From the NCBI RefSeq assembly GCF_006345805.1, contig NW_021829600.1, forward strand, positions 465 to 64,464: a DNA stretch of 64,000 nucleotides, read 5' to 3'. The position numbers and the translations under genes are program-made. Of this stretch, positions 285 through 49,107 are shown in pieces. Position 1 is the stretch's first letter; each line of letters opens with the position of its first letter. This DNA is from Octopus sinensis. Taxonomy: Eukaryota. Below the pieces are notes generated by a model. The model was not told the DNA's origin. It made no database searches and saw only the letters and a list, made by a program, of their open reading frames with translations.

Positions 285-549
285 CGTGTATGTTTGTGTG
301 TCTGTGTTTGTCCCCCTAGCATTGCTTGACAACCGATGCTGGTGTGTTTATGTCCCCGTAACTTAGCGGTTCGGCAAAAGAGACCGATAGAATAAGTACT
401 AGGCTTACAAAGAATAAGTCCCGGGATCGATTTGCTCGACTAAAGGCGGTGCTCCAGCATGGCCACAGTCAACTGACTGAAACAAGTAAAGGGGTAAAAG
501 AGTACAGAGTATATATATATATATACATATATATAATCGTTTATCTTTA

Positions 550-862
550 CTTCTTTCAGTCATTAGACTGCGGTCATGCTGGAGCACAGCCTTGAAGAGG
601 TTTTAGTCAAAGGAATTGATCCCGCTACTTAATTATTTTGCTACGCCTGGTACTTATTTTATCGGTCTCTTTTGCCCTGCCGCAAAGTTACGGAGGCGTA
701 ACCAACACCGGTTGTCAAGTGGTAGTGGGGGAACAAACACAGGCACAAAAAATACGCGCGCGCACGCACGTACACACACATATATATGTATGGTGTGTGT
801 ATATATATGTGTGGTGTGTGTGTGTGTGTGTATAGGTGTGTGTGGTGTGTGTGTGTGTATAT

Positions 863-911
<49 letters not shown>

Positions 912-1090
912 TGTACATATAAATATATATATATACACAACGGCCTTCTTCCTGCTTCTGTCTCCCAAATCCACTCACAAGGCTTTGACCGGCTCGAAGC
1001 TATAGTAGAAGACACTTGCCCAAGGTGTCACGCAGTGGGACTGGACCCAGAACCATGTAGTTTGGAAGCAAGCTTCTTACGACACAGCCA
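550..1090 (-). mobile_element. tRNA-derived SINE family A (internal (TA)n/(TG)n tract), reverse copy
   Basis: Reverse complement of the full copy at 8647-9150 (gtggctgtgt...gtcccactgcgtg-caccttgggcaagtgtcttctactatag...ccagcatg-ccgcagtc). Confidence 0.8.
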
Positions 1091-1201
1091 TATATATATA
1101 TATATATATATACAAATTGAATAAGGGTAGAAATTGATATTAATTAAACCCAGTGGCCTAGCATATTAAAGAAATCCGAAGATTAAAATATTTTTACATA
1201 C

Positions 1202-1389
1202 AAAATTTAAAGGACTGACCACTAAAAGTTGACGGTCAATATGCTAGATATAAACGTCAAAATCGCCATTTTCCACGAAGAATGTGTTCCCAAGTACTTG
1301 AGAACACATTCTTCGTGGAAAATAGCGATTTTGACGTCTATATCTAGCATATTGACCGTCCACTTTTAGTGGTCAGTCCTTTAAATTTT
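1202..1389. repeat. 188-bp spacer-less palindrome (94-bp arms)
   Basis: Centred on caagt|acttg (1291-1300); arms pair throughout with 4 mismatches counted by eye. Confidence 0.95.
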
Positions 1390-1826
1390 ATATATATATA
1401 TATACATATATATGCATGTATGTAGGTATATATGTTTGCATGTGTACACATGCCTGTATGAATGTATGTTTGTTTGTCAATGTGTGTATGTATATGTATT
1501 TAATTCTGCGTATTATAGATATATACAATTTAAGCAAGAACGCCAACATGGTCTTAGCAGTTATAGTAAAACCAAATTAAAAATTACTTATATGCATGCA
1601 TGCATGCATGGATAGGTGGGTTTCCATCTATTTCGACGATGAGGAGCGAGTAGCGAGATCAAATGAATCACATGTTTATCAAATTAACGTGTAAGTGCCT
1701 GAACGTTCCAAGATGCGTGAACCCATAACGTAATTCAGAGGCAGAATCGTTAAGTTGGTTTTGAAACCACGAGATCTCTATTTCGATCTCCCGGCGTGGA
1801 ATCATAATTGTTCCCTTTTATTTATT

Positions 1827-3123
1827 TCTTTATTACCCACAAGGGGCTAAACACAGAGGGAACAAACAAGGACAGACAAACGGATTAAGTCGATTACATC
1901 GACCCCAGTGCGTAACTGGTACTTAATTTTATCGACCCCGAAAGGATGAAAGACAAAGTCGACCTCGGCGAAATTTGAACTCAGAACGTAATGGCAGACG
2001 AAATACGGCTATGCATTTCGCTCGGCGTGCTAACAATTCTGCCAGCTCGCCGCCTTGTTCCCTTTTATTATTAGAAACAATTACAAAGCGGCGAGCTGGC
2101 AGAGACGTTAGCACGCTGGGCGAAATTTTTAGCAACATTTCGTCTGCCGCTACGTTCTGAGTTCAAATTCCGCCGAGATCGACTTTACCTTTCATCCTTT
2201 CGGAGTCGATTAAATAAGTACCAGTTACGCACTTGGGTAGATATAATCGACTTAATCCGTTTGTCTGTCCTTGTTTGTCTCCTCTGTGTTTAACCCCTTG
2301 TGGGTAGTAAAGAAATAGGTATTTCGTCTGCCGCTACGTTCTGAGTTCAAATTCCGCCGAGGTCGACTTTGCCTTTCATCCTTTCGGAGTCGATTAAATA
2401 AGTACCAGTTACGCACTTGGGTAGATATAATCGATTTAATCCCTTTGTCTGTTCTTGTTTCTCTCCTCTGTGTTTAGCCCCCTGTGGGTAGTAAAGAAAT
2501 AGGTATTTCTTTCGTCCTCATGTTCTGAGTTGAAATGCCACCGAGGTCGACTTTGCCTTTTATCCTGTTGGAGCTCGATTATAAGTACCAGACAAGTACT
2601 GAGATCGATGAAATAAGTAATACTCAAATACTGAGGTGGATGACTTCTGCCGCCGCCGCAAAAACTACTGGCCCGGTGCCAAAATTCGAGACCGTTATAT
2701 GAAACAATAAAAAGATGGCGAGCTTGCAGAATCGTTAGCACGTCGGGCAAAATGTTTGCGGTAATTAGTCCGTCTGCACGTTCTGAGATCGAATTCCGCC
2801 AAGATCGATTATGCCTTTCCTTTCGGGGTCGACGAAACCGATTTCTCCCCTCCCCACAAATTTCAGGTCTTTTGCCTTTAGTAGAAAGGATTATCATCAT
2901 TATTAGATTAACGCAGTGAGTGGGCAAAATTGTTAGCATGCCGGGCCAAATGCTTAGCGGCATTTAGTCCGTCTGCACGTTCTGAGTTCAAATTCCGCCG
3001 AGGTCGACTTTACATTTCATTCTTTCGGGTATCGATAAATTAAGTACCAGTTACGCACTGGGTCGATGAAATCGACTAGTCCCCTCCCTACAAATTTCAG
3101 GTTTTGTGCCTTTAGTAGAAAGG

Positions 3124-3126
<3 letters not shown>
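1827..3126. mobile_element. Cluster of SINE family B (Meta-domain-like SINE): one minus copy, then plus-strand monomers and a head-less tandem multimer
   Basis: Recurrent ggcggcgagctggcagaaacgttagcacgcc...gagttcaaattccgccgaggtcgactttgcctttcatcctttcggggtcgataaattaagtaccag; B-box-like gagttcaaattcc; central part resembles the MetaSINE domain; 184-bp unit repeats at 2141/2325. Confidence 0.8.
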
Positions 3127-3170
<44 letters not shown>

Positions 3171-3178
3171 TACTACTA

Positions 3179-3216
<38 letters not shown>

Positions 3217-3280
3217 TTATAGTTGTTATTATTATTATTATTATATTATTATTATTATTATTATTATTGTTGTTGTTGTT

Positions 3281-3713
3281 GAGTGAGAGAGCAGTGAATG
3301 CCATCAAAGTGACACTGGGGTAAAATATACGAAGCCCAGTATACCCATCATGACTACCAGTCTGATAAGAGTACACTCGGCACATCTATCACAACCATAT
3401 GTGCGCGACATGGTGATCTCATATCAAGATAAACAGCACATGACCTTGCAGGTGGGGCCCAGTTAGAATTTTCTTCTGGTCGAGTAACCCATCCTGCTCA
3501 AAAGGTCCCTGAATAAGAGTTGTTTAAGGATGTTGAACGAAACGCCCATGTTTCCAGAGGTGAATTATTCAAACCCCAAAGAATCCCTCTCAACACATGG
3601 CTATGATGCTCCCCCACTATTTCTGCTCGTGATCAGAGATGCACATATCGTCAGCCACTGGTTAAGGTCAAACAACAGTCAAGCAAATCTGTGGTACTGC
3701 ATCAGTGCATTTT

Positions 3714-5274: not shown

Positions 5275-6536
5275 CGAGGGGCGTTCAATAAGTAATGCCC
5301 CTGACCCACTTCTCATAGCAGTAGAGCAACGAAACTTGGCACAGTTATTAGTCTTTTCCTACATAGGAACCACCCAGAGTTAGGCATTTCTCCCATCGTT
5401 TGATACAGCTCTGGAGACCGTTTTTGTAGAAGACCCCAGCTTGGTCCTCCAACCACGACATGACTTCAGAAATCAAGGCTGCATCATCTGGGAAACGCTT
5501 TCCTTTCAAAATCAACTTCATGGCTGGGAAGAGGTGAAAATCAGAGGGTGCAAGGGGAGGAGTTCATAGCTCCACGCCTGTGCTTCTGATCTGGCGACAC
5601 GCGAGTTGTGGACCGGAGCGTTGTCCTGCAGGAGGAGGATGCCTTTGCTGATCTTGCCCCGCCTCTTGATTTTGATAGCTTCTCTTAATTTCCTCAAAAG
5701 TGAAGCATAATAGGCTCCTGTAATTGTGGTACCCTTTGCCAGGAAATCTGTCATCACTACTCCGTCCTGGTCCCAGAAGACTGTGAGCATAACCTTGTCA
5801 GCGGAGGGCTGCACACTTGCCTTCTTTGGAGGAGGTGAGTCACGGTGCTTCCACTGCATTGACTGGGCTTTGGTCTCTGGATCATAGTGATGGACCCAGT
5901 TTTCATCCTGTGTAATCAGTCTTTTGAAAAATTTTGACTCATCTTCTTGGCACATCTCCAAATTCATCCTCGAGCACTCAACGCGTTCTTGCTTCTGGAA
6001 AGGTGTGAGCAACCTGGAAATCCATCTGGCAGACACCTTTTGCATATGCAAATGGTCATGAATGATAGTTTCCACAGACCCGGTACCAATCTTGACCTTA
6101 TGGGCTATTTGGCGAATAGTTATGCGTCGATCTTCCAAAATGGCAGCCTCAACTTGACGGACAGATGCCTCATCAATGGCAGAAGGGGGGTGACCAGATC
6201 TGGGAGCTGTTTCCACAGAGTTCCGACTATGTCTGAATTCACAATGCCAGCGTTTTACAAGGTCATATGATGGGGCATCATCACCATAAGTTACTTTCAT
6301 TTCATCAAAAGTCTCCCGTGGTGTGCGTCCTTTCAAATACAAAAACCAGATCACTGCTCGACACTCAACAGGCTCCATTTCACACTTGACTCAGTTCAAA
6401 CATCTGTAAATCAGAAATCACATTTAGTTCATTCGCTACTTAATCTATAGAGGTATAAATAAGTGCACATGCAAAATTTCAGCTAGATCAAACAAATGCA
6501 AGTGGGTCAGGGGCATTACTTATTGAATGCCTCTCG
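5275..6536 (-). mobile_element. mariner DNA transposon, full length (copy 1)
   Basis: TIR cgaggggcgttcaataagtaatgcccctgacccactt at both ends; TA target duplication at 5273-5274 and 6537-6538; 1262 bp. Confidence 0.95.
5348..6378 (-). pseudogene. mariner D,D34D transposase, frameshifted near the YSPDLAP motif
   Basis: ORF 5518-6378 has an HTH N-terminus, WISRLL (WVPRLL-like), ITQDENW and QDNAPVH; a deletion removes YSPDLAP; the C-terminal YVGKD* lies in another frame. Confidence 0.9.
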
Positions 6537-18045: not shown

Positions 18046-19107
18046 GAAATCAAGGCTGCATCATCTGGGAAACGCTTTCCTTTCAAAAACAACTTCATGG
18101 CTGGAAAAATCAGAGGGTGCAAGGTCAGGAGAGTAAGGGGGTTGGGGGAGGAGTTCATAGACGCACGCCTGTGCTTCTGATCTGGCGACACGCGAGTTGT
18201 GGACCAGAGCGTTGTCCTGCAGGAGGAGGATGCCTTTGCTGATTTTGCCCCGCCTCTTGATTTTGATAGCTTCTCTTAATTTCCTCAAAAGTGAAGCATA
18301 ATAGGCTCCTGTAATTGTGGTACCCTTTGCCAGGAAATCTGTCATCACTACTCCGTTCTGGTCCCAGAAGACTGTGAGCATGACCTTGCCAGCGGAGGGC
18401 TGCACACTTGCCTTCTTTGGAGGAGGTGAGTCACGGTGCTTCCACTGCATTGACTGGGCTTTGGTCTCTGGATCATAGTGATGGACCCAGGTTTCATCCT
18501 GTGTAATCAGTCTTTTGAAAAATTTTGACTCATCTTCTTGGCACATCTCCAAATTCGTCCTCGAGCACTCGACGCGTTCTTGCTTCTGGAAAGGTGTGAG
18601 CAACCTGGAAATCCGTCTGGCAGACACCTTTTGCATATGCAAATGGTCATGAATGATAGTTTCCACAGACCCGGTACTAATCTTGACCTCATGGGCTATT
18701 TGGCGAATAGTTATGCGTCGATCTTCCAAAATGGCAGCTTCAACTTGACGGACAGATGCCTCATCAATGGCAGAAGGGGGGTGACCAGATCTGGGAGCTG
18801 TTTCCACAGAGTTCCGACCATGTTTGAATTCACGATGCCAGCGTTTTACAAGATCATATGATGGGGCATCATCACCATAAGTTACTTTCATTTCATCAAA
18901 AGTATCCCGTGGTGTGCGTCCTTTCAAATACAAAAACCGGATCACTGCTCGACGCTTAACAGGCTCCATTTCATACTTGACTCAGTTCAAACACCTGTAA
19001 ATCAGAAACCACAATTAGTTCAGACATAAAAATTTGCACATGCAAAATTTCAGCTAGATCAAACAACTGCAAGTGGATCAGGGGCAGTACTTATTGAACG
19101 TCCCTCG
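17852..19107 (-). mobile_element. mariner DNA transposon, full length (copy 2)
   Basis: Same TIRs as copy 1; TA at 17850-17851, CA (mutated TA) at 19108-19109. Confidence 0.95.
17925..18969 (-). pseudogene. mariner D,D34D transposase with C-terminal frameshift
   Basis: ITQDETW, QDNALVH and YSPDLAPSDF in ORF 18061-18969; the tail FPAMKLFLKGKRF...RWEKCITLGGSYVEKD* is in ORF 17925-18191. Confidence 0.92.
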
Positions 19108-22440: not shown

Positions 22441-22530
22441 ACCCCCACCCCCTCCAAAGCCCAACCGTTCTCCTCACCGTGGTGCTGGGGGTGGCAACAG
22501 CATATGGTAAGTATGCTGGCTAAACGGCTC
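22441..22530 (+). ncRNA. Candidate HDV-like self-cleaving ribozyme in the RTE 5' UTR
   Basis: P1 accccca/tgggggt, P2 ccgt/acgg, P3-L3 ctcc-tcaccgt-ggtg, P4 agcatat/gtatgct, J4/2 ggCtaa, in the nested double-pseudoknot order; HDV-like ribozymes are known at RTE 5' ends. Confidence 0.65.
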
Positions 22531-25530
22531 TGGCCTGGGGAAAGACCTGGCCACCTACCCCAGTATCCTGGCCAATATACTCTATGGATCAAAAGTGTAA
22601 GAATTCTAATATGATGGTACCAAACAGTGGGGACCCCCGGCTGCGAGATACCACATTGGCTACTGGGGAAGAGCACAAGGATAATCATAATAGCGGCGGT
22701 ATTGATGACGCGGATGGGACAAATCCTTCTGGACACCTGCCTGCTGATGTAGCGACCAGCGAACTGAGATCCCTGCGCTGCATAAAAGTCACAAAAATTG
22801 GAACATGGAATGTAAGGGGGATGAACATTGGGAAGTTGGACACCATCAATAAAGAAATGAATCGGTTAAACATCGATATCCTGGGAGTCAGCGAAGTTCA
22901 TTGGACTGGCAATGGTTTCTTCAACTCTGGTGATCATACAATGTACTTTTCAGGCAATAATAAGACCAGACAACATGGAGTGGGATTTGTTCTATACAAG
23001 AAAATATCCAAGTGCGTTGAAAGTTACCAGACCATGAGTGATCGAGTGATTACCATTCGCATCAAAGCCAAACTCAACAACATCACATTGCTACAAATCT
23101 ACGCGCCAACTGCCGACGCCGAAGAAGATGAGATTGAACAATTCTATGCAGAAATTCAGGGCGCAATCGAGGAAACATCACGAGCAGATGTTGTGTATAT
23201 TCTGGGAGAGTTCAATGCCAAAATTGGAGAAAGGGCAGAAGCAGACATCGTTGGCAAATTTGGATTAGGAGAACGGAATGAAGCAGGAGATCGACTGGTA
23301 CAATTTTGTCAAGAACAACACATGCGGTTAACCACTACTTGGTTTCAGCAACCAAGAAGGTTATACACCTGAACGTCGCCAAGTGGACAGTACCGCAATC
23401 AAATCGACTACATCCTATGTCAGCAACGGTGGAAGAGTTCAGTCCAAGCTGTGAAGACGTTCCCTGGGGCAGGCTGTGGATCTGACCATGAACTTCTGGT
23501 TGCCAAGATCAAGATGCGACTCTGCAGGTCAAGCGACCACCCGCTTAGCAGAAATTTAATATCAGCAAGATCGGTCCAGCATATACTGCTGAGATCAGAA
23601 ACCGCTTCGAACTGATCGCCATCGAAGAGAATCAAGAAGCAGAAGAAATATGGGAGAAGGTAAAGGAAATTGTCATTGAAACAGCAGAGAAACATGTACG
23701 ATCAGCAAAGTGGATTTCGGAGGAGACTATTGCAATAGCAGAAGAAAGAAGGAGAGCAAATGTTCCAACAGGCCGCCAGGAAGGTCAAAGAGAAATACTG
23801 GAATGAGGAATATGCAAGGGCAGAAGAGGCATACAGGAAAGGGAACATGAGAGAACTTTACCAACATGTAAAGAAGACCCGTACAGTATTCAGGCCAGAC
23901 AAGCAACCATCCGAGGAGAAAATTGTGAAGAACTGCATGACCAAGAAGGGATCAGGAAAAGTGGAAAGATACACTGAACAGTTGCATGCAGGGAACAACC
24001 TCGATGAACAGGCAAAGAGAAGCCACTGGAACTGGAACTGGAGCCAGACATCTGGAGGATGAGGTGGTATAGGCAATGAAAACAGCTGGCCAACCGAAAA
24101 TTTTCCCAAGTACTGATGGTATTCCACAGAAGTACTCACGCAATACCACCAAACACACTAAATCGCTTTGCCAACGAATATGGAGAACCTGTAAGTGGCC
24201 AAGGGAATGGAAGAGGTCAGTTTTCATCACAATACTAAAGAAAAGAGATACCAAGGACTGCGCAAACTACCGTAACATCGCCCTGATCTCCCATGTAAGC
24301 AAAATTCTCCTTAAATCATCCAGAAGCGCCTGAACACAACTATTGAGAGAGGAGCAAGCTGGTTTCAGAAAGGGAACAGGCACCCACGATCACATCGCCA
24401 ACCTACGGTGGATTATGGAAAAGGCAAGAGAATACCAAAAGAAGCTGTACATGTGTTTCATCGATTACTCCAAAGCCTTTGACAGCATTGATCATGACAA
24501 GTTATGGAAATGTCTGGAGGAAATGGGAACACCTTTACACCTTGTCCAGCTTATTAGATCACTCTATCAAAACCAAGAGGCTACAGTACGGACACCATAT
24601 GGCGACACTGATTGGTTTGTGGTTGGAAAAGGCACTCGGCAAGGTTGCATCCTGTCACCAGCAGCCTTCAACATGTACTCTGAGAAGGTCATGAGGAATG
24701 CAGGCCTGGAGCATTGGAGTGAGGATTGGAGGAAGAAATATTAATAACCTTCGCTATGCAGATGATACAACCCTGCTGGCGGAGAGTGGAAAGGATCTAG
24801 AGGATCTTGTCCTGCTGGTCAAGAAAGAGAGTGAGAAATTTGGGCTGTACCTCAATGTTAAGAAAACGAAGATCATGTTAACAGCAGCCACAACAAACAT
24901 CAGCATCAAGATCGATAATGAAGAGATTGAAGTGGTTGATGATTTCATCTTCCATGGCTCCAAAATAAATCGAGATGGTGACTGCACTCCAGAAATAAGA
25001 CGGCGGATAGTACTAGGCAGAGAGGCAATGGTCAGCATGAGCAGGGTCTGGAAGAGTAGAGACATCAGACTCGCTACCAAATGCAGATTGGTGAGTGCAA
25101 TTGTCTTCCCAATAGCAACATATGGATGCGAGACCTGGACACTAAAGAAAGCTGACCAGAAGAGAATTAATGCATTCGAGCTTTGGTGTTGGAGAAGACT
25201 TTTGCAGATTCCATGGACAGCGGGGCTCACCAATGGAGACGTTATTAAGCAGATCAGGCCGACAATGTCGTTAGAAGCTAGGATCACCAAGCATAGATTG
25301 GAATATTTCGGTCATATTATGCGGAGAAAATCCCTGGAGAAGGACATCATGCTCGGAATGGTCAGTGGCAAGAGAGGAAGAGGCCGACCAAGAACCCGCT
25401 GGCTTGACACCATCAAGAGTGACGCCGGAATGGACATAGCCAATCTGAAAGAAGCGGCCCAGGATAGAACTGACTGGAGGACACTGATTCAAAGAGTGAC
25501 CGAGAGTCGACTTCGACTGAGCGGAGAGAT
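22441..25530 (+). mobile_element. RTE-clade LINE, apparently full length (~3.1 kb), degenerate
   Basis: Single disrupted ORF from 22584 with APE motifs IGTWNVRGM, DILGVSEVHW, IYAPT, NQIDYIL, SDHELL and RT motifs FIDYSKAFD, QGCILSP, LRYADD; C-terminus YGCETWT...GKRGRGRPRTRWLD typical of RTE; several stops and frameshifts. Confidence 0.93.
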
Positions 25531-25659
25531 AGATACATACATACAAACACACACACACAGCTGCATATATAGACTGACAGAGAGACAATCAGACACATAC
25601 ACACATACATACATGGATTGGTAGTAAGAAAGAGAGGGAGAAAAAGAAAGATATATATC

Positions 25660-36064: not shown

Positions 36065-38070
36065 TTTTTAACGAACTAACTTAGGCTTAGATTTCGGCGG
36101 CGGGCTATCTCCATTCCTAACACTACGACACCCCCTGGCAACCTATAATGCTCCATCCAGACCTCCACGCTTCTAACGAAAGAATCCCAGGCACCCGCAG
36201 TCGCGTCTTCAATGAGTTCCAATAGGGCCTCGGAGAATGCCGCCAACCAACAGGTATGCCCAGGACATGCAGCGTCGAGGAATCGATCTCTCCAGTCAAA
36301 ACAAGGAGAATATCTATCCTCTACTTGTGGATGGTAGTTGGCAGAAGACGGCCCCTTACTCTTGAAGACTCTCGCGGGTCCGTCTAGTCAGAGCTACCCT
36401 CTTGGTTCCTACCTGTTTGGCCGTTTTGCCTGCCAGGAACCGCACAATGGCTACGTTGATGTATCTAGCCCCGGCTACTAGTAACTCAGCCTCCTTCTCG
36501 ACGAGGACTGCTACTTCCTCGTCTGACCAGCAGTCCCTGCGTCTTTGGCCTGAGGCCTCAGCAGTAGCTGCTCGATCCGTACGCTTCCTCGCCAGCTGCT
36601 CTTTATGAGCAGCTATCCTGCGCTCATTGGCGGCGACAGGATGCTTATGGCGAACGTACTGCGATCGACCTGCAGCCGTCAAAAAAGAACGGCTGCAGTG
36701 GTCACACCCGGAAGAGGACTGAGTAGAGCCAGAGGCAGGCACACCAGATGCACCACCACATTTGCCTACGTGACACCTCATAGAATGGAGGTGTCCGCTC
36801 TCCCTATCACACTTACTACATCTGTAGATCGGCTTCACGCCGTGCCTACTGTCTATATGTTCTCCCCAACGACGGGGAGAAGAGAAGCGCAGGGGACATA
36901 GCGCACAGGCTATGGAGCAGGACGCGCAGGGAATTGGTAACGAAAACTCGTCTCCACGACCCCCTCTCGGATAACATCTAAAGTAAGTGAGCGATCGTCA
37001 TGGAGGGGATCTTGAGCCAAGTTCGTCGGAACCTAGGAACTACCAGAGTGTGTGTCGGATAGTCCAGAATGAACCGGCCCTGTCTACTTCTAATATAAGT
37101 CAGCGCCGGGTGCAACACGCGACTTCCGACGCTGACGGAGTCATTTTCCTGTTGACCACTATCCATACCTTAAAGAAGGTACGAAACCCAGCCCCAGGAT
37201 AAACAAACATACCACCATCCAACCATCAGAGTACCCACCAACCAACTAACACCGGAGTGTGTGCCCCGGAGGTTCTGCCTGGCAGTGCATCCACCCGCCG
37301 TCAGTTGTGAGTCCTGGCAGTGCATACACCTACCCGAAACAGCGCGAGGTCATAACATACCAGACAAACCCGGTGGTGCATCCACCAGCTGAAAAGACAG
37401 CAGGTCATAACGCACCGGGTCTCCACTCACCACCAACACCGGATCATTACGTACCAAGCATTGCCAACCGGGCCTAATCGCATCTACCGGTCCCTAAACA
37501 GGAACCGCCCGACATGCCAAAGAAGCTCCCAAACAAGACTAAACAAGAAAAACCTGAGAACGACCCACCCAAACAACCAAGGATCCCCCTGTGTAGTATG
37601 ATACTGGTGAATCGCGCCAGTAAACTGCTACAGTCCCGTTGGGAACCAACGCGACACTACACTTAGATGAAGCCAAATTTAGCCGGACCGGCATCTAACT
37701 AGCCGGCTCGGGAAGCAGACCAGCGGAAGTCTACCTACCCTAGCAGGGAGGCCCACACCTCCAAATCAGGATCACCCATACACTCCATGGTCCCCACCAA
37801 ATAAATTGGCACCACTACGGGGGAAAAGAAGAACACGTTTAGTTTGTCCAAAGTGAGGGGCCCAATCCGGCATGGTTGAACCTACCGGCACAGCTACCCA
37901 CACGGACGTAAGCTCTTTCACCGCGACAAGGTAGTGTTCATAAGGGTAAAGCCTGGCAGTGCATCCACTTACCCGAAACGGCGAGTCATAACAAACCAGA
38001 CGCCAAGAACAAGAGTCATGGTTGCGCATCCACCGAGTCAGGCAGGTCATAACGCACCAGGCCCCACGAA
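36065..38070 (-). mobile_element. 5' portion of an R2-A-like non-LTR retrotransposon (3 zinc fingers + Myb), no RT or endonuclease
   Basis: One frame 36907->36356 gives CALC-x12-HIDSRH, CSKC-x12-HVGKC, CDHC-x12-(Y)VRHKH, then Myb-like WSDEEVAVL...YINVAI...GKTAKQVGTKR; long GC-richer 5' region. Confidence 0.8.
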
Positions 38071-43756: not shown

Positions 43757-44441
43757 CAACAACAACAACAACAACCCTTTCTACTAAAGCCACAAGGCTT
43801 AAAATGGGGGGAAAGGGCTAGTCGATTACATCGACCCCAGTGTTTCACTGGTACTTAATTTATCGGCCTCGAAAGGATGAAAGGCAAAGTCAGCATCGGC
43901 GGAATTTGAACTCAGAATGTAAGAACGTACGAAATGCCGCTAAGCATTTTGTCCGGTGTTCTAACGATTGACTCTAGCGAACCAATTTTTATTCTCCTAT
44001 CAATTAGGTTATCTGTTAATTTTATGCAACACTTCGATGCACTAAAATCAAACGTCACAACGGAAGTTCTGCTCGTGCTTTGTGATAGCCGATAACAAAA
44101 AACGTTATCGATTTATCATACGAATGGAGCTTTTTGAGATTTATAAAAAAAAAAATAAAAAAACACTGACTATTGAATTATCGAGAGATTTGCAGTGATA
44201 GAGGTAAACGGCCGAGGAGATAACACGCCGTACTACAGGAATACCAACTGACGTCTGGAAATATTAGGAGCGGTAGAGTGGCAGGTCAGATTAGTACAAT
44301 ATTGCTCAGGTCCTTATAACCTGGGCTGTGTTAAGAATTATAGAAATAGAATAAATATGATAAGTACTCTCCCCTTCCCACTCCGATACACTCGGTCTCT
44401 TCCTCTGCCCTTTACCACTTTTCTCCCCCCCTACCACTAAC

Positions 44442-44834
44442 AGGTAGATGGCTTCCAGAGGAGAAAAGTAGAAATTGCCTCGTTTTCAGCTCTACAACAA
44501 TGTCCAGCAAACTGGACTCTCCTACCTTTCACAAGAGATGATACAGGTGGTAGTTTCCCATTTATTTGCATTTTGGTTGGATGACGCTTCCACGAGAGAT
44601 TTTGAGCTCTCATAAGGAGGCGAGTGTAAGTTCCATTCAACCGCCTCTCAAGCTTCTTTCATAACTTCCATCTACTCGCAATACCAGAGGGCACACACTC
44701 TCCTACCCTGATGTAATCTCCAGTGATACAGGCATCCAGCAACAGGACCTCCGTAATGCTATGATGGACCGTGAAGTCTGGCGTAGCATGGTAAATTCCA
44801 TTGTCTCGACCACGGTCGAACAATGATGATGATG
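44442..44834. mobile_element. RTE-like LINE 3' fragment with 5' inversion
   Basis: Minus 44670->44445 reads KKLERRLNGTYTRLLMRAQNLSWKRH...FAGHCCR...LLWKPS; plus 44672-44823 continues TRNTRG...NAMMDREVWR; (TGA)n tail; actaac TSD at 44436-44441 and 44835-44840. Confidence 0.85.
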
Positions 44835-46823: not shown

Positions 46824-48385
46824 TATATTATATATATATATATATATATATGCATGTATATATACATATAGATCTAGGTAGGTACATATATATATGTATA
46901 TATGCATATTTTATATGTTATATATATAACATATAAATATATGCATATATACATATATATATATGTACCTACCTACATCTATATGTATATATACATGCAT
47001 ATATGAGTACAGGACATCAAAAATAACGTTGAGCACAATGAGAAACGAAAATATAAAAACTAAAACATGGAAACGAACTTTTTTTTTTCAAACAACGAAA
47101 AAACAGTGCACAAGACATACAACACAAGGAATATTCCCCTCCTTCAGTTGTCCCTGTTTCGTCTACTCCGCGTTCCGAATGTAAGGACCAGAAGCGTCTT
47201 CGTTGAAACAGTCCTTCACGCAAAGCAAATTAAATAAAATTTAGGATTTTTTGCAGATGGGTAAAAGTGGTAACAAGAACAGGACAGTAAGAACAAAACA
47301 AGACTGTAAAAACAATACAAGTAAAAACAGTAAAAGACAAGACAAAGAAATAACACAGTAAAAACAAACGATGAGGGATGTTAAGTCAAGACGATGGAAG
47401 AAATCTAATGAATCGTTCAAACGTGGATGTCATATATCTTGACTTTGCAAAGGCTTTTGATGAGGTTGACCATAGGATGATATGCCACTAGCTACGGGGA
47501 CTTAGCATAGTCGGGAAACTGGGAGAGTGGTTACATGACTTCTTAAAAGACAGAAGCCAGGCTGTAGCAACCAATGGAGCCCTCCCCAAGGAGACCGCAA
47601 TAGAGAGTGGAGTACTTCAGGGAACTGTATTCTGACCGCTACTGATCATGGTGGCCCTTTCAGATATGTCATCAATTACACAGACAACCACACTTTCTAG
47701 CTATGCCGACGACACAAAAGCAGTACAAGAAGTCAAGGAACCTTCTGATGTTAATCTTCTGCAGAAAGATCTAGATGCCATATATATATATAGGCAGGAG
47801 AAAACAACATGCAGTTTAATGCAGGTAAATTCCAAGCTCTCTTCTACCAACTAATTGGTGCTCACAAGCTGCAACAACGATACTTTGGACCAAAATGAGC
47901 AGCAGTACCAAAGTTACATATAGTGCGTGATCTGGGGATTGATATGGGCAAGATGGTTGCAATATGCAGACGCATGGATTCTGAGAATCTTCAGAACAAG
48001 GGACCAGGAAACTATGCTGGTTCTATGAAGGACATTTTTACTCAGCCGTCTGGGCTGCTACTCTCAATTGTGGTCACCCCACAATGTCAAATTAATAGCG
48101 GAACTTGAGGCAATTCAGCGATGCTGCGCCAGAATGATGGAACAGCTGAGCTACTGGGACGGACTGAAATCGGTGGAACAGCTGAGCTACTGGGAGAGAG
48201 TGAAAGAGCTACGACTCTACTCCCTGGAGTGAAGACGGTAGAGGTATACAGTGATATATGTGTGAAGATTCTGGAGGGGCTAGAACCAAACTTTGGTATC
48301 AAGAGCTATACAAGCCCCCGAACTGGACGTTACTGCATTGTTCCCAAGATCCCAGCTATCTCGTCTAGAGTGAGGACCATGTACT

Positions 48386-48721
48386 TACAGTACTTGTACT
48401 TGTGGCGACATTCACCCTGGGCGGGTTGAGTCGGCTTCTTCTACCACCCTCGAGGCAGAAGAAGTTTGGTGGGAATATGTGGATTTCACATGCGGTCCCC
48501 AACAATCCCGCATGTAGAGACATCCTGTTTGCCGAAACAGACACTCCGAGGATTTTCACTAGAGCCCCGTCTGCCGGGTTGTGGCCATAATACCACTCGG
48601 TGTCAGACCAATCCGTCTTGGGTGGCCCTACCAGGAACTGAAGTTCCCGACGGCATAGCTCTGACACTACCCGTTGCCAGCGTCCCCACCACGGTGAGGA
48701 GGGGATGGACTTTGGGGACGC
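48386..48721 (-). mobile_element. 336-bp ribozyme-headed non-coding retroposon
   Basis: TSD atgtact (48379-48385, 48722-48728); 3' tail caagtacaagta; no tRNA A/B boxes; removing it restores the host frame SRVRT-MYCNSLG. Confidence 0.85.
48564..48721 (-). ncRNA. Candidate HDV-like ribozyme with expanded P4
   Basis: P1 gcgtccc/gggacgc, P3-L3 ctcc-tcaccgt-ggtg, P1.1 ca/tg then gcaac, P4 gggt/accc enclosing gtgtcaga/tctgacac, J4/2 ggCaga, P2 ccc(c)/(g)ggg. Confidence 0.6.
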
Positions 48722-49107
48722 ATGTACTGCAATAGCTTGGGACTCAAGGACTCGCAGTTATTTAACACCTTGCCAAAATATCTGAGGGATCTACATGGAA
48801 TGGGGGTAGCTGTTTTCAAGAAACAACTTGACCTCCTGCTACCCAAGATCCCAGATGAACCGATATCAAGGCAGGTAACTCAAAAGAGAGAACTACCTCT
48901 TTCACCAAAAGCTAATCATATAAACAGCCTTGCCCGGACTTATGCCTTAGAATGGAATATTCTAGGTACAATCGCATAGTCATTCATGACTAAAGGGTGT
49001 TTTAATTTTTATTCTGAACAGATACTACTTCCGCCGCTGTTAACGTGTGTGTGTGTGTGTGTGTGTATGTGTCTGTGTGTGTGTGTGTGTGTTTTATAAA
49101 GAGTTCC

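What the first reader, a model, noticed from the sequence alone, without database searches (positions are those of the whole stretch)
48379..48728. SINE-like retroposon whose head is an HDV-like ribozyme instead of a tRNA promoter
Seen: a 336-bp minus-strand insert with TSD atgtact and a CAAGTA-repeat tail, no ORF and no A/B boxes; its removal restores the host CR1 frame. Its first base is G1 of a 7-bp P1 (gcgtccc/gggacgc), followed in HDV order by P2, P3/L3, P1.1, gcaac, a ~110-nt branched P4 and ggCaga. The 3' half is a run of hairpins (acatgcgg/ccgcatgt, cttcttctgcc/ggtagaagaag, ctgttt/aaacag). Known: HDV-like ribozymes cleave immediately 5' of P1 and process R2/RTE transcripts. Inference: a promoter-less non-autonomous family that cuts itself out of host transcripts and borrows an RTE-type RT. 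This is the best candidate here for an undescribed system. Caveats: P2 is short, P3 has a U-U mismatch, and G1 could equally be part of an 8-bp TSD.
Basis: partly seen in the sequence, partly recalled or inferred. Interest (0 to 1): 0.8.

Follow-up and report, generated by a model that had tools for sequence, protein, structure and literature searches.

The report
Shrunken RTE retrotransposon keeping ribozyme head
This 336-base insert is one of hundreds of internally deleted copies of a 3.4-kb jumping gene in the same genome, keeping only its two ends, and its front end folds like a known self-cutting RNA that likely frees it from longer transcripts; the family appears undescribed but the design is known.

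Summary
In detail: a 336-bp minus-strand insert (48386-48721) with a 7/8-bp target-site duplication in a host LINE remnant whose other copies show the empty site. It is multicopy, and its 5' ends stop at G1. It is not a new kind of SINE. All of it maps onto a 3.43-kb single-ORF endonuclease+RT LINE of RTE type in this genome (L031): nt 1-264 match the 5' UTR and nt 265-331 the last ORF codons and tail. It is therefore a bipartite (internally deleted) non-autonomous LINE, the class of R2 SIDEs, NARTc and RTESINEs. Three diverged sister subfamilies (B-D) keep the HDV-like fold with compensatory changes in P1, P2 and P4, and their 5' boundary moves with P1. The ribozyme is thus well supported structurally but untested. 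It is atypical: an A-U pair in P1.1, P1 of 6-8 bp, U-U in P3, only 4 contiguous bp in P2, and below Rfam thresholds. A side finding, weakly supported: the 5' UTR end is complementary to the ORF end 3 kb away, and deletion junctions fall between these two arms. Verdict: new member of a known kind.

The parts
48722..48728 (+). Target-site duplication, copy at the element's 5' side (ATGTACT; 8 bp if G1 at 48721 is counted)
   Evidence: single copy at empty host sites
48378..48385 (+). Target-site duplication, copy at the tail side; overlaps the tail repeat (AGTA microhomology)
48386..48721 (-). Whole insert: bipartite non-autonomous copy of an RTE-type LINE (subfamily A)
48559..48721 (-). Predicted HDV-like ribozyme = first ~160 nt of the LINE 5' UTR
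48714..48721 (-). P1 5' strand (8 nt); predicted cleavage 5' of 48721
   Evidence: pairs with 48680-48687; family 5' boundary
48688..48704 (-). P2 5' strand (48701-48704), P3 5' (48698-48700), L3 (48691-48697), P3 3' (48688-48690; outer pair U-U)
48678..48687 (-). P1 3' strand (48680-48687) and P1.1 3' strand UG (48678-48679, pairing with C-A of L3)
48575..48673 (-). Branched P4 domain (~100 nt) closed by a 5-bp base stem
48570..48574 (-). J4/2 GCAGA with the predicted catalytic C at 48573
   Evidence: C in 38/38 A, 29/30 B, 21/23 C, 16/16 D copies
48559..48568 (-). P2 3' strand (48565-48568) and 3-nt extension (48559-48561; TAG here, TGG in most copies)
48458..48558 (-). Remainder of the LINE 5' UTR, with a 56-nt deletion near 48529-48534; ends in the CTTCTTC arm (48458-48464) just before where the LINE start codon lies
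48403..48457 (-). LINE 3' end: last ORF codons with the GAAGAAG arm (48435-48441) and the stop codon (48412-48414)
   Evidence: 98.5% to L031 element nt 3367-3433
48386..48402 (-). CAAGTA-type microsatellite tail
47636..48377 (+). Host LINE remnant upstream of the insert (CR1-like by recalled motifs; no Pfam hit)
48729..48900 (+). Host LINE remnant downstream of the insert

Best explanation
The insert is an internally deleted copy of an RTE-type LINE present in this genome, made of that LINE's 5' UTR joined to its last codons and tail, and it was likely copied into place by the full-length LINE's endonuclease and reverse transcriptase after a predicted HDV-like ribozyme cut its RNA at G1. Shown here: derivation from the LINE, multicopy spread with individual TSDs, a 5' boundary at the first P1 base, and a conserved fold with compensatory changes. 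Inferred: (1) transcription by RNA polymerase II from upstream host promoters or an internal promoter; (2) self-cleavage 5' of G1 giving an uncapped 5'-OH RNA; (3) binding of the LINE protein in trans to the retained ends; (4) target-primed reverse transcription primed through AGTA microhomology with the tail, often adding an untemplated base or two at the 5' junction. Short copies arose many times from the LINE by different deletions and then outnumbered it.
For: Derivation: insert nt 1-264 match L031 element nt 1-316 (one 56-nt gap) and nt 265-331 match nt 3367-3433 at 98.5%; short copy L017 is 95.5% and 95.6% identical to L031's two ends. The LINE is 3,434 bp with an Exo_endo_phos + RVT_1 reading frame; its best homolog is a 1,035-aa EN+RT protein, 71% identical. 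Copies: 128 exact head 28-mers, 280 exact tail 28-mers, reversed-pattern controls 0. Of the first 50 listed tail matches, 37 are short bipartite, 11 are 5'-truncated LINE ends, 2 are full-length-type LINEs; of the 37, 23 start at nt 1-3, 10 at nt 4-16, 4 further in. TSDs of 7-19 bp were found in 20 of the 35 head-anchored copies with a tail (40 fetched) and of 7-14 bp in 24 of 33 top copies; the published RTE range is 7-15 bp (PMC6007223). Fold: majority P1 is G-C,C-G,G-C,U-A,4xC-G in A; C-G,U-G,A-U,3xC-G,U-A in B; 5xC-G,U-A in C; C-G,C-G,U-A,U-A,C-G,C-G,U-G in D. Conservation begins at the first P1 base in A (34/38 G vs near-random two bases upstream), B (20/30) and D (13/18). P3 is a full A-U,C-G,C-G in D; P2 and P4 also change in pairs. 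Untemplated 5' bases were T/A-rich with no G next to G1 in the 14 junctions that had extra bases, a hint of an uncapped template.
Against: No cleavage data. Rfam: nothing at gathering score; best relevant match HDV-F-prausnitzii 15.6 bits vs 44 needed, E 4.8. Geometry departs from published norms (P1 6-7 bp, P2 at least 5 bp; PMC3774820, PMC4908430): subfamily A has 8 bp P1 (or a 4-bp P3), U-U in P3 (38/38) and 4 contiguous P2 pairs. B, C and D start with C, not G. 75% of head columns (120 of 160) are identical across subfamilies, so invariance of the catalytic bases alone proves little. In the pair count, the number of pairs with two-sided change was not above shuffles (8 vs 7.1; 209 of 500). 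Subfamily C 5' ends are ragged or chimeric (13 of 25 keep J1/2). RTE clade was assigned by anatomy, not by a tree with named references. No intact LINE copy was found among those read (L031, L041, L045, L046 have stops, frameshifts or deletions).
Confidence: 0.78

Rival explanations
1. Same bipartite origin, but the head is a decayed or non-catalytic HDV-derived fold in subfamily A; the 5' end is set by an internal polymerase II promoter starting at G1 and the structure serves protein binding or translation.
For: Atypical P1, P2 and P3 geometry; sub-threshold Rfam score; L1Tc's first 77 nt are an internal promoter starting at +1 (PMC3185411 passages); Kojima expects polymerase II transcription of bipartite LINEs (PMC5786205 section 23).
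Against: The 5' boundary tracks the P1 partner of the base before P1.1 in subfamilies with different P1 sequence and length; a start site has no reason to do so unless inherited from a ribozyme; no extra G at 14 junctions with added bases.
Confidence: 0.17
2. One reading: an independent SINE-like family with its own ribozyme head that only borrows an RTE tail, an undescribed system.
For: Short copies greatly outnumber the LINE (37 vs 2 of 50 tail-anchored copies) and spread on their own with TSDs.
Against: Head and body are the LINE's own 5' UTR at about 95% identity; each sister subfamily has its own LINE with the matching head; more than ten different deletion junctions link short copies to the LINE; the design is published (PMC3414825, PMC4035085, PMC5786205).
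Confidence: 0.03
3. The short copies are passive products of deletion during individual LINE insertions rather than self-propagating families.
For: Many different junctions exist, several seen once.
Against: Identical junction classes recur at unrelated sites (18, 7, 6 and 5 copies among the 60 resolved of 78 examined); the window's junction recurs in L188.
Confidence: 0.05

Closest known systems
Bipartite non-autonomous RTE LINEs (RTESINE1/2, WALLSI3, MAR4_MD, Bov-A; Kojima 2018, PMC5786205)
   Same: Only the 5' and 3' parts of an RTE LINE, no ORF, no small-RNA head, keeps the LINE's 5' end; the paper links this to 5' ribozymes predicted in RTE families.
   Different: Different host and LINE lineage; here the ribozyme fold is resolved by covariation over four subfamilies, and many independent junctions coexist.
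R2 SIDEs of Drosophila (Eickbush and Eickbush 2012, PMC3414825)
   Same: [quoted passage not shown]
   Different: R2 is site-specific in 28S rDNA with polymerase I co-transcription and tested cleavage; this family is dispersed, has an APE-type partner, variable TSDs and a microsatellite tail.
NARTc, RIME and SIDERs of trypanosomatids (PMC3185411, PMC4035085)
   Same: Dispersed short derivatives with an HDV-like ribozyme at +1; P1.1 of 1-2 bp; relaxed consensus; a C1 start is mentioned for one active SIDER ribozyme.
   Different: Ingi clade, 77-nt compact ribozyme doubling as promoter, poly(A) tail; here a ~160-nt ribozyme with a branched P4.
HDV-like ribozymes at the 5' end of RTE elements (Ruminski et al. 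2011; not held, known here only through citing papers)
   Same: Position at the 5' end of an RTE LINE and nested double-pseudoknot order.
   Different: A-U in P1.1, P1 of 6-8 bp, U-U in P3, short interrupted P2; I could not compare with that paper's alignments.
Perere-3 of Schistosoma mansoni (PMC8501958)
   Same: RTE clade, single APE+RT ORF, GTAA-type 3' repeats, ribozyme at the 5' end beside the TSD; the nearest named homologs of this LINE are flatworm proteins.
   Different: Perere-3 uses a twister variant and is autonomous.

Membership tests
Bipartite non-autonomous LINE (SIDE) | 5' part equals the 5' end of an autonomous-type LINE | tested here: met
Bipartite non-autonomous LINE (SIDE) | 3' part equals that LINE's 3' end and tail | tested here: met
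   98.5% over 67 nt
Bipartite non-autonomous LINE (SIDE) | Coding region deleted | tested here: met
   LINE nt 317-3366 absent
Bipartite non-autonomous LINE (SIDE) | Amplified as short copies with their own TSDs | tested here: met
Bipartite non-autonomous LINE (SIDE) | Mobilised in trans by the LINE protein | not testable with these tools
   inferred from shared ends and TSD pattern
RTE clade (partner LINE) | Single ORF of about 1,000 aa with APE endonuclease and RT, about 3.4 kb | tested here: met
   P0001 has only EN and RT Pfam hits
RTE clade (partner LINE) | Microsatellite 3' tail and TSDs of about 7-15 bp | tested here: met
   range from PMC6007223
RTE clade (partner LINE) | RT groups with named RTE elements in a tree | not tested
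   no labelled reference sequences were available
HDV-like ribozyme | Nested double pseudoknot in order P1, P2, P3, L3, P3', P1', P1.1', P4, J4/2, P2' | tested here: met
HDV-like ribozyme | P1 of 6-7 bp directly before P1.1 | tested here: inconclusive
   7 in B and D, 6 in C; in A 8 bp, or 7 bp with a 4-bp P3
HDV-like ribozyme | 3-bp P3 closing a 7-8 nt L3 with U first and G sixth | tested here: inconclusive
   L3 met in all four; outer P3 pair U-U in A-C, A-U in D
HDV-like ribozyme | P1.1 of 1-2 bp | tested here: met
   A-U in all four, plus C-G in A-C
HDV-like ribozyme | J4/2 C-N-R-A with catalytic C (motif recalled) | tested here: met
   CAGA, CCAA, CUAA, CUAA
HDV-like ribozyme | P2 of about 5-7 bp | tested here: inconclusive
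   4 contiguous bp plus a 3-bp extension after an internal loop in A-C; 6 bp with a bulge in D
HDV-like ribozyme | Element 5' end at the first base of P1 | tested here: met
   A, B, D; C ragged
HDV-like ribozyme | Mg2+-dependent self-cleavage 5' of nt 1 | not testable with these tools
   needs in vitro assay
SINE (polymerase III, small-RNA head) | tRNA, 5S or 7SL-derived head with internal promoter boxes | tested here: not met
   head is a LINE 5' UTR

The most novel reading that the evidence does not exclude
This RTE lineage carries an active, structurally deviant HDV-like ribozyme (A-U P1.1, P1 drifting between 6 and 8 bp, mostly C1 starts, U-U in P3), and its full-length RNA closes into a loop through a helix between the end of the 5' UTR and the last codons 3 kb away. 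That helix would set or select the deletion breakpoints, explaining why RTE elements so often spawn bipartite derivatives, which PMC5786205 calls unexplained.
Probability: 0.25. Interest if true: 0.58.

Novelty: new member of a known kind. Interest (0 to 1): 0.33.

Why it matters
The design is known, so the main value is a clean natural series: four related subfamilies with full-length and deleted forms whose P1 changed sequence and length while the 5' boundary followed it. It gives ready test cases for how far HDV-like ribozymes can depart from the 7-bp P1 and C-C/G-G P1.1 rule, a minimal set of cis-sequences for an RTE protein, and a testable idea (5'-3' pairing) for why RTE LINEs generate bipartite parasites.

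Tried and rejected
Rfam at gathering score: nothing in the window; at E up to 10 only a sub-threshold HDV match among 7 weak hits. No second copy of the core motif in the window. An alternative register (an upstream base pairing with U, P1.1 = GG) was rejected because it fails in B and D. The subfamily C P1 tally used an offset one base off and is replaced. Metagenome scan: 80 distant loci (25-41% identity); the 15 with 5' regions that I screened showed no convincing similar head. Sequencing runs: no RNA holder listed, contigs only; they cannot show RNA starts or expression. The long-range helix was the best partner of the 5' arm in only 1 of 5 full-length copies scanned, and A and B arms cross-pair as well as or better than cognate ones. 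(LINE body of subfamily C, 11 matches) added nothing further. Earlier findings of the scan: none by words or by sequence. Ruminski 2011 was not held. Repbase and Dfam could not be searched.

Full report
Observation. The duplication is 7 bp, or 8 with G1 shared. Six of seven other copies of the host element show the empty site with a single duplicated word. There are no polymerase III boxes, tRNA or Rfam family. The insert folds better than shuffles (z -2.69, 0 of 100).

Family. The insert finds 1,604 first-look candidates in the 2.72-Gb genome, 40 scored. Exact 28-mers give 128 heads and 280 tails with reversed controls at 0. With a median divergence of 4.3% in 40 copies this implies several hundred short copies (inference). 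Of the 30 best copies, 28 start at the same GCGTCC and 2 are shortened; that set is biased to full length. A tail-anchored sample avoids the bias: of the first 50 listed tail matches (40 fetched new, 10 already held), 37 are short bipartite copies, 11 are 5'-truncated LINE ends and 2 are full-length-type LINEs. Of the 37, 23 begin at nt 1-3, 10 at nt 4-16 and 4 further in. Upstream of G1 the flanks are unrelated apart from an excess of T at -1 (24 of 38). Contigs of two other coded organisms show loose ends before the same places (502, 503 and 505 of L031; 36/16/14 and 30/14/15 contigs; list truncated).

Origin. One hit continued into a 3,434-bp element, L031 (G000:C1:181633201 onward), whose first 337 and last 68 nt match short copy L017 at 95.5% and 95.6%. 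It carries one long endonuclease+RT reading frame, broken in the copies read. The best of 186 homologs is a 1,035-aa EN+RT protein at 71%; the nearest named ones are flatworm proteins at about 50%. The window insert is LINE nt 1-316 (less 56 nt) joined to nt 3367-3433. In 78 copies examined, 60 junctions were resolved and fall in 19 length classes, the largest with 18, 7, 6 and 5 copies; the window's junction recurs in L188. So the short elements are repeated internal deletions of the LINE that then spread.

Ribozyme. Searching with the LINE's 5' region and endonuclease found three diverged subfamilies, each with a LINE-type copy and short or partial copies: B (about 72% identical LINEs), C and D. 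Majority P1 pairs are all canonical in A (8), B (7) and D (7), and 6 of 7 in C (13 of 25 copies with an intact 5' region), with four different pair types at the third pair. The start of conservation moves with P1: offset -20 in A, -19 in B, -22 in D. L3 keeps U first and G sixth; P1.1 is A-U in all and C-G in three; J4/2 is C-N-R-A in all; D has a full 3-bp P3 and a longer, different P2; the P4 base changes U-A to C-G between A and B. On a 38-sequence alignment, leaving out P1, the P2 core and the P4 base because they were out of register, 91.5% of cells pair against 29-43% for slid controls, and 28 cells show two-sided change against 14.4 +/- 3.0 (0 of 500 shuffles); the count of such pairs was not above shuffles (8 vs 7.1). 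Against: the Rfam HDV match is sub-threshold; P1 of 8 bp, U-U in P3 and a 4-bp P2 depart from the 6-7 bp P1 and at least 5-bp P2 reported for R2 and other HDV-like ribozymes (PMC3774820, PMC4908430, passages); 120 of 160 head columns are unchanged across subfamilies. I put genuine HDV-like ancestry at about 0.9 and present activity in subfamily A at about 0.75 (judgement).

Mechanism. Shown: derivation, spread, boundary, fold. Inferred: polymerase II transcription, self-cleavage at nt 1, binding of the LINE protein in trans, target-primed reverse transcription using tail microhomology. TSDs of mostly 7-15 bp fit RTE (PMC6007223 passages). In the 14 junctions with extra bases between TSD and G1, these were T/A-rich and none had G next to G1, a weak hint of an uncapped template (inference from recalled RT behaviour).

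Side finding. The end of the 5' UTR is complementary to the last codons about 3.07 kb away in A and B, and with different sequences in C and D (D seen only in short copies). In 27 of 29 new short copies the 5' part reaches that arm and in 28 of 29 the 3' part starts at or before the other. Thermodynamic support is weak: best partner in 1 of 5 full-length copies, and A and B do not discriminate. Retention could also reflect two separately required signals.

Comparison with the known. PMC5786205 (passages and section 23) lists bipartite ORF-less LINEs from RTE, Ingi, Vingi and R2, notes they keep the LINE's 5' end and ties this to 5' ribozymes. PMC3414825 (passages) shows R2 SIDEs with active HDV-like ribozymes. 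PMC3185411 and PMC4035085 (passages) show the same for NARTc and SIDERs. PMC8501958 (passages) shows a twister variant heading the RTE element Perere-3. PMC9115989 and PMC13282606 (passages) report RTE LINEs and many unclassified SINE families in octopus; 'ribozyme' occurs 0 times in either main text. Six searches found no paper on this family or on a cephalopod HDV-like ribozyme. Ruminski 2011 was not held, no supplements were opened, and Repbase and Dfam were not searchable, so the family may already be catalogued there.

Verdict. Real feature, correctly observed, over-interpreted as a new system. New member of a known kind, interest 0.33; the atypical ribozyme series and the possible 5'-3' helix are the parts worth a bench test.

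Noticed in passing
L031:503-3936 and window 48435-48464: Complementarity between the end of the LINE 5' UTR and its last codons, with different sequences in subfamilies A/B, C and D; deletion junctions lie between the arms.
   Followed up: partly
L096, L097, L125, L127, L130, L132, L135-L137 (5' of L3): A group of subfamily C copies has P1, J1/2 and P2 replaced by another shared upstream sequence, so the ribozyme front half is swapped; several lie near each other on one contig.
   Followed up: no
L020, L026, L033, L045, L175, L307 (5' junctions): Partial duplications of the element's own head directly upstream of G1, suggesting template jumps or re-priming at the 5' end.
   Followed up: no
L042, L043, L054: LINE copies with an inverted internal or 3' segment next to the 5' end, resembling twin-priming inversions.
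   Followed up: no
L161 and L162; L029 and L164; L116, L120, L126, L128: Groups of copies sharing the same 5' flank, probably segmental duplications or insertion into another repeat; they are not independent insertions.
   Followed up: no
window 22524-23372 and 24695-25624 (+): Remnants of another non-LTR element with endonuclease (weak Pfam hit) and RT (Pfam hit), RTE-like by recalled motifs.
   Followed up: partly
window 5518-6390 and 18061-18981 (-): Two near-identical open frames that look like mariner transposases (recalled motifs; not searched).
   Followed up: no
window 36356-36997 (-): Open frame with several zinc-finger-like motifs, possibly the N-terminus of an R2/R4-type element (recalled; not searched).
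   Followed up: no
window 44437-44658 (-): Short frame resembling the C-terminus of another LINE; no Pfam hit.
   Followed up: partly
window 48140-48200 (+): A short tandem duplication inside the host LINE remnant upstream of the insert.
   Followed up: no
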